Origin: Thermincola ferriacetica
Lineage (GTDB): Bacteria; Bacillota; Thermincolia; Thermincolales; UBA2595
Assembly (NCBI GenBank): GCA_016841325.1
Contig: JAENZJ010000015.1
Span: 13,655 to 77,654 of the forward strand
Length of the DNA stretch: 64,000 nt
Direction: 5' to 3'
Both the position numbers and the translations under genes were made by a program. Under the pieces are notes generated by a model. The model saw only the letters and a program-made list of their open reading frames with translations. It made no database searches and was not told the DNA's origin. This document shows, piece by piece, positions 10,484 through 62,895 of the stretch. The first letter of the stretch is position 1, and each line of letters begins with the position of its first letter.

Positions 10484-10741
10484 CTGATAAACCATTAAGA
10501 GGCAGGCATATAGGTAATATTGTATGCCTCTTTCCATTCGTTTTTCAGGTCGTCCGTCCAGGACAGTCGAACGGGCTCTTTGCGCTTTAGCGCTTAGAGC
10601 CCGTTTTACCCTTTGGGTAGACCCGCAAAGCGGGAGCTGATGCCGGCGGAGATATTGCCCGCCGGAGGAATACATCTACCACTTTCCATTTTACATTTTA
10701 ATATTTTTTAAAAATATGGACCTTTGAAATCCTGGAAAGAG

Positions 10742-52301: not shown

Positions 52302-52352
52302 ATAGTTTCACCTCATACCAATATTGGCATCATGCGAATTTTTATGTAAATG

Positions 52353-52956
52353 GTAGGTGGCAGCATGACAAGTAAATGTTGTGGCTTAAGGTCCAGCTGG
52401 TTTTCCCATTCATCTCCGTCGCGTTACCGCTCCGGCGGTTTCCCTTTATGATGAATCCGTAGCGTCGCCGCTTACGGGGCTAGATTACCACTTAGACCAC
52501 ACTTTAATCCCTGTCATGCCTTAGTAAACCTAAACAGCCTAGGAGTTTTCCTCAACAGGACTGGGAACACTTCTAGCCTCTTTTGCAGTGATGGTTTCAT
52601 ACAGCGGTCCTGTCGAAAGCGGGCCCGCATTCAACAGCTCCGATAACCCATAATCCACCAGCACCACTCAAGGCAGGCTACACTGCTTTAGACACCTTAC
52701 CGCAGTAAAGCATCATATACACAGGTTTCTCCCGGGAAGTTTCCGTTATTTACAGACCGGTATGCTTCCCGGGCCTCCACGGAGGCTGGGTCAACGCCTA
52801 CATGCCTTTGTAGATCGCCCTTCCCCCTTACTCCCAGAACCGACCCCCAACTGGGCGTCAGCAGCCGGAACCAGGAACTTCATCGATATGCCCTTTGACG
52901 GATTTTTAGGCCCGCCTTCAAAGTGGCAGTCCTGACTAGGATACTGCGCCACCTAC
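52353..52956 (-). ncRNA. ole: OLE RNA (ornate, large, extremophilic)
   Basis: About 604 nt with no credible ORF, closed by a 9-bp terminal stem (5' GUAGGUGGC 52956-52948 / 3' GCCACCUAC 52361-52353); many internal stems; canonical ispA-ole-oapA-dxs-tlyA-nadK-argR-recN synteny. Confidence 0.9.
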
Positions 52957-52978
52957 ATTGTGTTTTCATTAAAATAGA

Positions 52979-60097: not shown

Positions 60098-60409
60098 TTA
60101 ACAGCTTCCTGAGCAACTGCTGCAGCCACCCGCATCTTTTTCAGATACAACAAATCCTTTACCCATGTAATTGTCAACCCAGTCTATAACGAGGTTTTTG
60201 TACATGTCATCGTAATCCTTGCTGATTACGACCTTAAAACCATCATATTCAATGACTTCATCATTGTCTTTAGCTGACTTTTCCAAAGCCAGACCGAAAC
60301 TGGGGCCTCCTCAACCCATACCTGCAAACGCAATTCTAACCATTTCAGAATTGTTGGCATCCAGCACTTTTTTCATTTCTTCCTGTGCTGCATCTGTCAT
60401 AGTAATCAC
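60098..60409 (-). CDS. HesB/IscA-like protein with in-frame UGA (probable selenoprotein)
   Basis: MITMTDAAQEEMKKVLDANNSEMVRIAFAGMG-U-GGPSFGLALEKSAKDND...GGCSSCSGSC; UGA at 60313-60311 (codon 33); RBS AAAGGAG. Confidence 0.8.
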
Positions 60410-60500
60410 TACAAATCGCTCCTTTTTATATAGAAATTCACATGTAATACCCTATGTGGGTATTATATAAAATTATCGTTAGAAAGGCAACCCCTGACTA

Positions 60501-61991
60501 TTATTCATCATTCCACTCAAAATATACCCACTCATCATCATCATAGAAATAAAGGATCCTGTAGCTGACCCACCACCCTGATCCATAAGGTGATGCCGTG
60601 ATGCTTTCTTCCGGGAAACTTTCGGGATAGCTCTCAAAGATCCCCCTGAATAAAACCTCACCCAGGACATGTTTGTCGGGGTACACCTGTTCAGTGTAAT
60701 TTACAATATCTGTGAGCCACTCCTTGAAATCGTCTTCAGCCCCCTCTTCAAGTCCCATCAGGAGTTTTAGGTAATTTGCGTCATCCATGGTAAGCTGCAT
60801 CAGTACTGTGGTTGAATCGTCGGATTCAACTGCCCAGGCCCCATCAAAAGCTACGGTGTTGGAACCTACTGCTGCTGCTCCCATGTCCCGGAGCAACATG
60901 TCGGCAAATTCAGTATATGCTACAGCCGGCTCTGAAGTGTCACTTATGGGCATTTCCTGATAATCCCCGTCCCTGATGATGTCTTTTACTTCATCAATTG
61001 GTATCGCCAGGTTAAGGTTCTGCCCTCCGGCATACATGGCAGTAGTAATTCCGATAACCTCTCCCCTCATATTAAATAGGGCCCCCCCGCTGCTTCCAAC
61101 TGATATGGGAGCAGTTGTCTGGATATAATTGAAGCCGTCAACAGACCGGTTTAATGAACTGATAATTCCATCACTCACCGTATTTGTCAAGCCAACAGGG
61201 CTGCCTATGGCCACCACCTGCTCACCCAGTTTAAGGCCGGCCGATTCTCCCAAAACAACCGGTCTTAATACCTTCCGGGAAATTTTCATCAGGGCTACAT
61301 CCCGGTCGGGGTCGTACTCAACAACACCCAGCACTTCCAGACTCCGGCCATCCTCCAGCCATATCATGGCAGAGTATGCCCCATCAATTACATGGTAATT
61401 GGTTATTACCATGTCATCACTTACTGCGAAACCACTGCCGGTGGCCAATTCGTTTCCCGTATAATCAAACGTGGTTATCATGACCACACTTTTACTCTCT
61501 TCGGCTACCTCCTGGACAGTTTTGGCTCCGGTTACTTCTCCGTTACTGCCCGTTCCGGAAGAGGAATTTATGTAGATGGTCCTTGTCAGAGGTTCCCATT
61601 CCACTGCTGCCCCCACAGCCTCAGATACAAACCTCAGGGGAACAAAAGTTCTGTCATTGACAATTTTCGGCGGCACTTCCAGTAATATCTGCCGGCCATC
61701 AACATATGCTGTCCGGCTGCCGATTACCAGGATGATAACCGTATCACCCCTGTTGGCTGTAACCGCCTTTGTGTCCGGGTCCCACAGGATCTCTGCTCCC
61801 AGGTCCTCAAATATGCCTCTCATTGGAACAAGAGTGCGTCCCTCTTCAATAAACGGCTCCTGGTCGTAAACCCTCACCCTGCCGTCAAGAACAATAACAG
61901 GTGCATCCAAGGCATATGCTGCAGACGGAACAAATGCCGTTACAGTTAGTATTGCCATAATAATCAAAGCTGTCAGGTATCTTTTCTTCAC
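60501..61991 (-). CDS. Secreted trypsin-like (S1C/HtrA-like) serine protease with copper-amine-oxidase N-terminal (stalk) domain
   Basis: Signal peptide; GRTLVPMRGIFE and RTFVPLRFVSEAVG; catalytic triad TNYHV, DVAL, GSSGGAL. Confidence 0.88.
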   Translation of the reverse strand: MKKRYLTALIIMAILTVTAFVPSAAYALDAPVIVLDGRVRVYDQEPFIEEGRTLVPMRGIFEDLGAEILWDPDTKAVTANRGDTVIILVIGSRTAYVDGRQILLEVPPKIVNDRTFVPLRFVSEAVGAAVEWEPLTRTIYINSSSGTGSNGEVTGAKTVQEVAEESKSVVMITTFDYTGNELATGSGFAVSDDMVITNYHVIDGAYSAMIWLEDGRSLEVLGVVEYDPDRDVALMKISRKVLRPVVLGESAGLKLGEQVVAIGSPVGLTNTVSDGIISSLNRSVDGFNYIQTTAPISVGSSGGALFNMRGEVIGITTAMYAGGQNLNLAIPIDEVKDIIRDGDYQEMPISDTSEPAVAYTEFADMLLRDMGAAAVGSNTVAFDGAWAVESDDSTTVLMQLTMDDANYLKLLMGLEEGAEDDFKEWLTDIVNYTEQVYPDKHVLGEVLFRGIFESYPESFPEESITASPYGSGWWVSYRILYFYDDDEWVYFEWNDE

Positions 61992-62145: not shown

Positions 62146-62895
62146 TTGGGAAAGGAAGATAACATGAAAAAAGTAATTGAAGAACTGGTCAATGAAAAGG
62201 TGTCTGCCAGCAAAAAAAGCATATTCCGCCAACCCCTGACAGGTTATGGTGATGCGGCTGACCCTTTGTTTAAACAGCTAAAATCAGTAATCGGCCCGGA
62301 ACACCTGCTTCCATCCGAGATACTTCAGGGAGCAAGGTCCGTAGCTGCATTCTTTATTCCCTTTACAAAGGATCTTATCGTGGGCAACCGGCAGGGAGAG
62401 TATGCCTCCAGAGAATGGGCGGAAGCCTATGACTATACAAATAAACTTATTGACTCTATTTGTCGGGACTTAAGTCAGGCCCTGTCATCCCGGGGAGTTC
62501 GGATGGCCTGGCTGCTCCCTACTTATGATTTTAACCGGGAAAAACTTGTTGCCCAGTGGTCCCACAGGCATGCGGCTTACATCTGCGGTCTGGGCAGTTT
62601 CGGACACAACAATATGCTTATCACTGAAAAGGGCTGTGCCGGACGATTTGGCACTATAATACTCGATACTTACCTTGAATCAAGCTCCAGGCCTGAATTG
62701 CTGCATTCTTGCCACAGGGACACCGGTTGCCGTTATTGTATCGAGATATGCCCGGTTCAGGCCCTTGGGGAAACAGAATTTGACAGGCACAAATGTTACC
62801 ACAGACTGCTGGAAAACGACCGTCTGTATCCCGACCTGGACCTTACCGATGCCTGTGGTAAATGCGTTACCGGCCCCTGTGCTTTTTGCGGTTAA
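62146..62895 (+). CDS. Epoxyqueuosine reductase-like (QueG/reductive dehalogenase-fold) 4Fe-4S protein
   Basis: SHRHAAYICGLG, GHNNMLIT, CxxCxxxCP and CGKC motifs. Confidence 0.7.
   Translation: MGKEDNMKKVIEELVNEKVSASKKSIFRQPLTGYGDAADPLFKQLKSVIGPEHLLPSEILQGARSVAAFFIPFTKDLIVGNRQGEYASREWAEAYDYTNKLIDSICRDLSQALSSRGVRMAWLLPTYDFNREKLVAQWSHRHAAYICGLGSFGHNNMLITEKGCAGRFGTIILDTYLESSSRPELLHSCHRDTGCRYCIEICPVQALGETEFDRHKCYHRLLENDRLYPDLDLTDACGKCVTGPCAFCG

What the first reader, a model, noticed from the sequence alone, without database searches (positions are those of the whole stretch)
60098..60409. HesB-like gene with an in-frame UGA at the conserved Cys position (selenoprotein split by the ORF caller)
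Seen in sequence: the ORF track reports only the last 62 aa, but an RBS and GTG at 60409 open a frame that continues through a single UGA (60313-60311) in the context AGMG-U-GGPSFGLALE. A short hairpin (CCAG-UUUCGGU-CUGG) at +8 to +22 after the UGA contains GGUCUG, like the apex of the E. coli fdhF SECIS. The C-terminus is Cys-rich (GGCSSCSGSC). Established knowledge: HesB-like selenoproteins carry Sec in this G-(C/U)-GGP motif. Inference: a 103-aa selenoprotein rather than a pseudogene.
Basis: partly seen in the sequence, partly recalled or inferred. Interest (0 to 1): 0.65.

Follow-up and report, generated by a model that had tools for sequence, protein, structure and literature searches.

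The report
HesB-like selenoprotein gene, confirmed
A small gene that looks broken by a stop codon almost certainly encodes a 103-residue selenium-containing protein of the iron-sulfur-carrier (IscA/HesB) fold; this is a known kind of selenoprotein whose function is unknown, and a conserved copper/sulfur-sensor-type operator in its promoter gives a testable clue to that function.

Summary
On the minus strand, 60409-60098 is one frame with a GTG start, an AAGGAG ribosome-binding site and a single in-frame TGA at 60313-60311. The product has the IscA/HesB fold.

In 107 homologous gene copies fetched here, the aligned codon is only TGA (26), TGC (48) or TGT (33). Both halves of the gene are under purifying selection. 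TGA is an ordinary stop elsewhere in the window.

The real element is the adjacent hairpin at 60295-60272. It has an 8-bp stem and a GGA loop 26 nt after the UGA, folds at -8.1 kcal/mol, and meets the published bacterial SECIS model. All 21 distinct TGA genes keep it, with compensatory changes; the ten Cys homologues folded individually lack a stable hairpin there.

So this is a HesB-like (UxGP) selenoprotein, a known family, though it scores below the NCBIfam cut-offs. The nearest named relatives are Thermincola and Phosphitispora, and T. potens is listed as a selenocysteine user.

One new lead: a CsoR-type operator (TAATACCC-N5-GGGTATTA) overlaps the -10 box and is conserved in this clade. 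A more distant clade places the gene in an arsM(Sec)-arsR operon. Both point to a metal(loid)/sulfur stress role.

The parts
60098..60409 (-). HesB/IscA-like selenoprotein gene, 103 codons plus TAA stop. GTG start. Sec33; Cys96, Cys99 and Cys103 in the C-terminal tail.
   Evidence: PF01521 E 6.7e-13; TIGR00049 62.2 bits against a cut-off of 58.8. AlphaFold model pLDDT 83.5 with IscA/SufA as top structural matches, TM 0.73-0.77.
60311..60313 (-). In-frame UGA read as selenocysteine (residue 33, motif G-U-G-G-P).
   Evidence: The aligned codon in 107 homologous gene copies is TGA 26, TGC 48, TGT 33 and nothing else. All six database proteins looked up with 'W' here translate only with TGA=W.
60272..60295 (-). 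Bacterial SECIS hairpin GG-U-CUGGCUUU-GGA-AAAGUCAG-CU. Core helix 60292-60285 with 60281-60274; apical loop GGA 60284-60282; bulged U 60293.
   Evidence: MFE -8.1 kcal/mol. Across 21 TGA genes: 87.5% of cells paired, 4 pairs and 18 cells with changes on both sides, 0/500 shuffles reach this, slid controls 31-57%. Meets the four bSECIS criteria quoted in PMC13188914.
60419..60424 (-). Ribosome-binding site AAGGAG, 9 nt before the GTG start.
   Evidence: AGGAGCGAT is conserved in four of the six aligned loci (window, L002, L010, L001).
60462..60490 (-). Sigma-70-type promoter TTGCCT-17 nt-TATAAT.
   Evidence: 10 of 12 matches. The -35 and -10 blocks are conserved in relatives.
60445..60465 (.). 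Perfect palindrome TAATACCC-N5-GGGTATTA (core TACCC-N5-GGGTA 60448-60462) overlapping the -10 box and the expected transcription start. Candidate CsoR-family operator.
   Evidence: The only TACCC-N5-GGGTA site in 64 kb, expected 0.06. Invariant block in six diverged upstream regions. Upstream of 8 of 21 TGA genes and 0 of 72 Cys genes. Matches the TAC-N9-GTA / ATATACCCCTNAGGGGTATAT type-2 CsoR consensus in PMC3902906.
60004..60041 (-). Intrinsic terminator (12-bp stem, then a T run) 57 nt after the stop codon. The gene is monocistronic.

Best explanation
This is an intact, monocistronic selenoprotein gene. The mRNA runs from a sigma-70-type promoter (60490-60462) to an intrinsic terminator (60041-60004).

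Translation starts at GTG 60409. At UGA 60313-60311 the ribosome does not terminate. The hairpin 60295-60272 has its GGA loop 26 nt downstream of the UGA and would recruit SelB-GTP-Sec-tRNA(Sec), so selenocysteine is inserted.

The 103-residue product has the IscA/HesB (A-type carrier) fold. Sec33 takes the place of the first cluster-ligating cysteine, and a flexible Cys-rich tail (C96, C99, C103) takes the place of the C-G-C motif. Together they would form a Se/S ligand site for an Fe-S cluster, a soft metal, or a persulfide/selenide relay.

Shown here: the frame, the fold, the Cys/Sec pairing, the conserved and covarying hairpin, purifying selection, and the promoter, operator and terminator anatomy.

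Inferred: SelB-dependent insertion, what the site binds, and repression by a CsoR-family sensor through the palindrome over the -10 box. That last point would make the gene inducible by Cu(I) or by reactive sulfur/selenium species.
For: - Frame and motif.
- Family: PF01521 and TIGR00049 above cut-off. The best NCBIfam hits are NF038090 IscA_HesB_Se and TIGR01911 HesB_rel_seleno.
- PDB relatives: Aq_1857 E 2e-14 and IscA, with U33 aligned to the first ligand Cys.
- Fold: TM 0.73-0.77 to IscA/SufA.
- TGA at the same codon in Thermincola ferriacetica and Phosphitispora genomes and in 21 distinct genes overall. All other homologues have TGC or TGT.
- dN/dS is 0.12-0.31 upstream and about 0.06-0.15 downstream of the TGA where dS could be estimated.
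- TGA ends 8 of 28 long ORFs in the window, so the code is standard.
- Hairpin covariation. The ten Paenibacillus Cys homologues fold at only -0.5 to -3.8 kcal/mol there.
- bSECIS criteria from PMC13188914 are all met.
- HesB-like is an established selenoprotein family with the UxGP motif. It was 75Se-labelled in Methanococcus maripaludis and counted in 86 organisms in 2016.
- Thermincola potens JR is listed as a Sec user with 10 selenoproteins.
Against: - None lies in the window: no tRNA, no Rfam tRNA-Sec, and no Sec-machinery family among the 11 large ORFs scanned.
- The organism is only about 78-82% identical in DNA to the nearest named relative, so the genus-level literature evidence is indirect.
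- The protein is below the curated cut-offs of both selenoprotein-oriented NCBIfam models (62.4 against 85; 62.1 against 66.35).
- There is no expression or proteomic data, and no isolate or RNA runs were found.
Confidence: 0.88

Rival explanations
1. A relic. The lineage once used Sec, but this genome has lost the Sec machinery, so the gene is now a dead, recently inactivated pseudogene that terminates at UGA after 32 residues.
For: Sec machinery could not be checked. Published work describes frequent selenoprotein loss, including loss of HesB-like proteins.
Against: Promoter, RBS, start codon, UGA, hairpin, downstream frame and terminator are all intact. The hairpin sequence is identical to that of relatives, including at synonymous sites. 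Pairwise dN/dS is low on both sides of the TGA. Four of the five closest relatives (L001, L002, L009, L010) keep the same arrangement; the fifth (L008) keeps the TGA and hairpin, but its upstream region is cut by the contig end.
Confidence: 0.06
2. The UGA is read through without selenium, for example as Cys or Trp by near-cognate tRNA or by an alternative code. The product would then be an ordinary IscA-like protein.
For: Gene callers translated several homologues with TGA=W.
Against: TGA is a normal stop for 8 of 28 long ORFs in the window. The aligned residue in homologues is always Cys, never Trp or Gly. A dedicated hairpin with the SECIS hallmarks is conserved only in the TGA genes.
Confidence: 0.03
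3. Two separate small proteins: a 32-aa peptide ending at the TGA, and the 62-aa ORF that starts at TTG 60286.
For: This is how ORF callers report it.
Against: There is no RBS before TTG 60286. The two parts together make one IscA fold with high model confidence across the junction. The internal start is not conserved as a start codon, and the Cys homologues are continuous.
Confidence: 0.02

Closest known systems
HesB-like selenoprotein family (Kryukov/Zhang/Gladyshev lists; TIGR01911; motif UxGP; 75Se-labelled in Methanococcus maripaludis)
   Same: IscA/HesB fold. A single Sec in G-U-x-G-P aligned with the first conserved Cys. SECIS immediately downstream in the coding region. About 100 aa. 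Anaerobic host.
   Different: Scores below the curated cut-offs of TIGR01911 (62.1 against 66.35) and NF038090 (62.4 against 85), as did all eight other TGA-type relatives tested. This clade has a longer Cys-rich tail, G-C-S-S-C-S-G-S-C, and a CsoR-type operator in its promoter.
A-type Fe-S carriers IscA/SufA/ErpA (PDB 1x0g, 1r94, 1s98, 2d2a; Aquifex Aq_1857, 1nwb)
   Same: Same fold (TM 0.73-0.77). Ligand positions correspond.
   Different: Sec replaces the first Cys. The tail is C-x2-C-x3-C rather than C-G-C. The gene is not in an isc or suf operon; it stands alone.
Escherichia coli fdhF SECIS (from my own knowledge of the element)
   Same: A hairpin inside the coding region just after the UGA. 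G residues at the start of a small apical loop. A bulged U on the 5' side.
   Different: The loop is GGA (or UGGAU in other clades), not GGUC. The bulged U lies 8 bp below the loop.
Type-2 CsoR operators (Streptomyces lividans csoR/copZA and others; consensus ATATACCCCTNAGGGGTATAT, TAC-N9-GTA; PMC3902906)
   Same: TAC-N9-GTA inverted repeat with C/G tracts and AT-rich flanks, overlapping the promoter.
   Different: The C/G tracts are 3 nt, not 4-5 nt. No csoR, copA or copZ gene lies beside it in any fetched locus. Binding is untested.

Membership tests
IscA/HesB (A-type carrier) superfamily, PF01521 / TIGR00049 | Profile match above the curated cut-off | tested here: met
   PF01521 49.3 bits against 26.3. 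TIGR00049 62.2 against 58.8.
IscA/HesB (A-type carrier) superfamily, PF01521 / TIGR00049 | IscA fold | tested here: met
   AlphaFold pLDDT 83.5. Foldseek top hits are IscA 1x0g/1r94/1s98 and SufA 2d2a, E 1e-6, TM 0.73-0.77.
IscA/HesB (A-type carrier) superfamily, PF01521 / TIGR00049 | Three ligand cysteines (C ... C-G-C) | tested here: inconclusive
   The first position is Sec33. The C-terminus has C96, C99 and C103 (C-x2-C-x3-C). Only C99 aligns with the C-G-C motif. The tail is modelled with pLDDT below 50.
IscA/HesB (A-type carrier) superfamily, PF01521 / TIGR00049 | Binds and transfers an Fe-S cluster | not testable with these tools
   Needs biochemistry.
HesB-like selenoprotein (UxGP) | In-frame UGA aligned with a conserved Cys of homologues (Cys/Sec pair), with TGA-containing orthologues in other organisms | tested here: met
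   TGA 26, TGC 48, TGT 33 of 107 gene copies. 21 distinct TGA genes, including Thermincola ferriacetica and Phosphitispora.
HesB-like selenoprotein (UxGP) | UxGP motif | tested here: met
   G-U-G-G-P. Motif as listed in PMC13188914 Table 1.
HesB-like selenoprotein (UxGP) | Bacterial SECIS: loop of 3-9 nt with G in its first two positions, upper stem of 4-16 bp, 16-37 nt from UGA to loop, MFE at or below -7.5 | tested here: met
   Loop GGA, 8-bp stem, 26 nt spacing, -8.1 kcal/mol. Covariation.
HesB-like selenoprotein (UxGP) | Score above the curated cut-off of TIGR01911 or NF038090 | tested here: not met
   62.1 against 66.35 and 62.4 against 85, with C substituted for U. The same holds for eight other TGA-type relatives. 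I therefore file it as a Sec-containing IscA/HesB protein of the literature's HesB-like kind, but outside these two curated models.
HesB-like selenoprotein (UxGP) | Sec-decoding machinery (selA, selB, selC, selD) in the same genome | not testable with these tools
None is in the window. Thermincola potens JR is listed as a Sec user, which is indirect.
HesB-like selenoprotein (UxGP) | Selenium actually incorporated | not testable with these tools
   Needs 75Se labelling or mass spectrometry.
CsoR-family regulon (candidate) | TAC-N9-GTA pseudopalindrome with C/G tracts in the promoter | tested here: met
   60448-60462, unique in the window, overlapping the -10 box, conserved. Consensus from PMC3902906.
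CsoR-family regulon (candidate) | A CsoR/CstR-family repressor encoded in the genome that binds the site | not testable with these tools
   No CsoR-like motif in the window or in L002, L009 and L010.

The most novel reading that the evidence does not exclude
HesB-like selenoproteins are not housekeeping Fe-S assembly factors. They are metal(loid)/reactive-sulfur stress proteins under dedicated metalloregulators.

In the Thermincola/Phosphitispora clade, a CsoR-family (Cu(I)- or persulfide/selenide-sensing) repressor would bind the conserved TAATACCC-N5-GGGTATTA operator over the -10 box. In another clade the gene sits in an arsM(Sec)-arsR-hesB(Sec) operon. The Sec plus Cys-rich-tail site would then bind or relay Cu(I), As(III), or sulfane sulfur/selenium.
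Probability: 0.4. Interest if true: 0.55.

Novelty: new member of a known kind. Interest (0 to 1): 0.3.

Why it matters
For annotation: this gene and its relatives sit in public databases as 62-64-aa fragments, or as proteins with a false Trp at the Sec position. They also fall below the curated selenoprotein model cut-offs, so pipelines will keep missing them.

For biology: HesB-like is among the most widespread bacterial selenoprotein families, yet its function is unknown. The conserved CsoR-type operator, and the arsM-arsR linkage in a second clade, give a concrete and cheap experiment: induction by copper, polysulfide, selenite or arsenite.

Tried and rejected
- Exact look-up of a neighbouring window protein to name the organism: not on record.
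- Sequencing runs: only metagenomes with at most 0.17 of the words, and no RNA runs. No read-level test was possible.
- A scan of the window for a second TGA-interrupted gene gave 123 mostly spurious candidates and no convincing second selenoprotein.
- No Sec-machinery family (SelA, SelB, SelD) among the 11 large window ORFs scanned against Pfam.
- Rfam has no matching family in this region; only sub-threshold noise.
- A search for a csoR-like gene by motif in the window and nearby loci found nothing.
- Close Cys-type homologues looked up for context turned out to be archaeal or on short contigs, and were uninformative about regulation.
- Earlier notes of this scan held nothing on selenium.

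Full report
**What is there**

On the minus strand, a GTG at 60409-60407 follows an AAGGAG ribosome-binding site (60424-60419). It opens a frame that runs to TAA at 60100-60098 with one in-frame TGA at 60313-60311. The product is 103 residues: VITMTDAAQEEMKKVLDANNSEMVRIAFAGMG-U-GGPSFGLALEKS...GGCSSCSGSC. A mechanical ORF list shows only the last 62 codons. Relatives have ATG or TTG at the same start codon, which fixes the start.

A sigma-70-type promoter (TTGCCT-17-TATAAT, 60490-60462) lies upstream and an intrinsic terminator (60041-60004) lies downstream. The gene is therefore monocistronic.

**Family and fold**

- The protein matches Pfam PF01521 (Fe-S_biosyn, E 6.7e-13).
- It matches TIGR00049 above the cut-off. 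Its best NCBIfam hits are NF038090 IscA_HesB_Se and TIGR01911 HesB_rel_seleno, but both are below their curated cut-offs (62.4 against 85; 62.1 against 66.35).
- By sequence, the nearest solved structures are Aquifex Aq_1857, HI1723 and IscA. Residue 33 aligns with the first ligand cysteine.
- An AlphaFold model (pLDDT 83.5; the tail 94-103 is disordered) superposes on IscA and SufA with TM 0.73-0.77.

**Is the TGA a selenocysteine codon?**

The close database relatives are of two kinds. Some are 62-64-aa C-terminal fragments. Others are full-length proteins with W at this position. All six W proteins looked up translate only with TGA=W.

The nearest named genomes are a Thermincola ferriacetica MAG (87% identity) and Phosphitispora sp. 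TUW77 (72%). Both have TGA at the same codon.

I ran a local tblastn over every locus fetched. The codon aligned to residue 33 in 107 gene copies is TGA 26 times, TGC 48 times, TGT 33 times, and never anything else.

Pairwise dN/dS is 0.12-0.31 for codons 2-32 and about 0.06-0.15 for codons 34-103 where dS could be estimated, so both halves are under purifying selection. TGA ends 8 of 28 long ORFs in the window, so the organism uses the standard code.

**The SECIS element**

Across 12 TGA genes only 60% of cells are paired, no better than shuffles.

The conserved element is the next hairpin, GG-U-CUGGCUUU-GGA-AAAGUCAG-CU (60295-60272). It has an 8-bp upper stem, a GGA loop starting 26 nt after the UGA, and an MFE of -8.1 kcal/mol. 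These values meet all four criteria of the published bacterial SECIS model (loop of 3-9 nt, G in the first two loop positions, 16-37 nt spacing, MFE at or below -7.5), as quoted in PMC13188914.

All 21 distinct TGA genes have a hairpin at this place, with loop GGA or UGGAU. On their alignment:

- 87.5% of cells pair.
- Four pairs and 18 cells show changes on both sides. One example is U-A to C-G, where a synonymous Leu UUG/CUG switch goes with a Lys/Glu change.
- 0 of 500 shuffles reach these values, and slid controls pair at 31-57% (12-sequence version).

Among the closest relatives the hairpin is identical even at synonymous sites, while flanking codons vary. The ten Paenibacillus Cys homologues folded individually give only -0.5 to -3.8 kcal/mol in the same window. 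Over all 72 Cys homologues the mean is weaker than in the TGA genes, -6.3 against -8.5 kcal/mol.

**What could not be shown**

The presence of selA, selB, selC and selD in this genome is therefore untested. The window holds no tRNA, no Rfam tRNA-Sec and no Sec-machinery family among the 11 large ORFs scanned.

The window shares about 78-82% DNA identity and gene order with Thermincola-like contigs. Thermincola potens JR is listed among Sec-utilizing organisms with 10 known selenoproteins (PMC5029168 Table S2). That evidence is indirect. No isolate or RNA sequencing runs were found.

**Comparison with what is known**

HesB-like is an established selenoprotein family with motif UxGP and model TIGR01911 (PMC13188914). 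Eleven members were known in 2006 (PMC1794560). By 2016 there were 90 genes in 86 organisms. It was confirmed by 75Se labelling in Methanococcus maripaludis, and its function remains unclear (PMC11097638).

The gene here is a new member of that known kind. It and the eight other TGA-type relatives tested fall below the cut-offs of the two curated models. This explains why databases hold them as fragments or with a false Trp.

**A lead on function**

A perfect palindrome, TAATACCC-N5-GGGTATTA (60465-60445), begins inside the -10 hexamer.

- It is the only TACCC-N5-GGGTA site in the 64-kb window (expected 0.06).
- It is the only such site in the 20-kb relative L002.
- It forms an invariant block, ATATAATACCC...GGGTAT, in six otherwise diverged upstream regions, including both tandem copies in L021.
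- A TAC-N9-GTA palindrome of this type lies upstream of 8 of 21 TGA genes (one of them, L022, as the variant TACCT-N5-AGGTA) and 0 of 72 Cys genes.
- It fits the type-2 CsoR operator consensus (ATATACCCCTNAGGGGTATAT; TAC-N9-GTA) described in PMC3902906.
- No csoR-like gene lies nearby. A literature search for CsoR together with HesB found no paper linking the two.

In a more distant clade (L031, L034) the TGA-type HesB-like gene follows two other genes in the same direction. The first is an arsenite methyltransferase that itself has an in-frame TGA (NF008823, 332 bits with TGA read as Cys). The second is an ArsR/SmtB regulator. Elsewhere the neighbour is an LMW-PTP/ArsC-type gene or a Redoxin-domain gene.

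None of the inspected TGA-type loci showed isc or suf genes beside the HesB-like gene. This suggests a metal(loid) or reactive sulfur/selenium stress role rather than housekeeping Fe-S assembly. It is an inference, not a result.

**Verdict**

The finding is a correct but fairly ordinary selenoprotein call (confidence 0.88), with a modestly novel regulatory lead.

Noticed in passing
window 60445-60465: Perfect palindrome TAATACCC-N5-GGGTATTA overlapping the -10 box of the selenoprotein gene. It matches the CsoR type-2 operator consensus. It is unique in the window and conserved upstream of the TGA-type genes of this clade, but absent from the Cys-type genes.
   Followed up: partly
L031 1-1579 and L034 22-1680: Operon-like row of arsenite methyltransferase with its own in-frame TGA (YTA-U-I[AS]GA), an ArsR/SmtB regulator, and a TGA-type HesB-like gene. 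That is two selenoprotein genes under one metalloregulator.
   Followed up: partly
L021 905-1195 and 1400-1690: Two tandem TGA-type HesB-like genes, each with its own TACCC-N5-GGGTA palindrome upstream.
   Followed up: partly
proteins P0002-P0006, P0014, P0016, P0017, P0022-P0025, P0031, P0033, P0042, P0097, P0139: Public protein collections hold this family either as 55-64-aa C-terminal fragments or as full-length proteins with a false Trp at the Sec position (contigs called with TGA=W). This is a systematic mis-annotation.
   Followed up: yes
L061 2516-2938; L035 2235-2750: Other TGA-type HesB-like genes lie directly after an LMW-PTP/ArsC-type gene (PF01451) or a Redoxin/AhpC-TSA gene.
   Followed up: partly
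window 52341-52968 (-): Full-length OLE RNA (RF01071, 497 bits) in the usual xseAB-ispA-OLE-oapA-dxs neighbourhood. This marks the host as an anaerobic extremophile Firmicute.
   Followed up: no
window 60501-61991 (-): The 496-aa protein just upstream of the gene joins a copper amine oxidase N-terminal domain to a trypsin-like protease domain. It is present in L001 but absent from the syntenic Thermincola-like contig L002.
   Followed up: no
window 10607-10619: A second TACCC/GGGTA inverted repeat with only a 3-nt spacer (TACCCTTTGGGTA). The spacing differs, so it is probably unrelated to the operator at 60448.
   Followed up: no
window 62146-62895 (+): A 249-aa Cys-rich ORF beside the locus has no Pfam hit at E<=1e-4. 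By eye it resembles an epoxyqueuosine-reductase/4Fe-4S-type protein.
   Followed up: no
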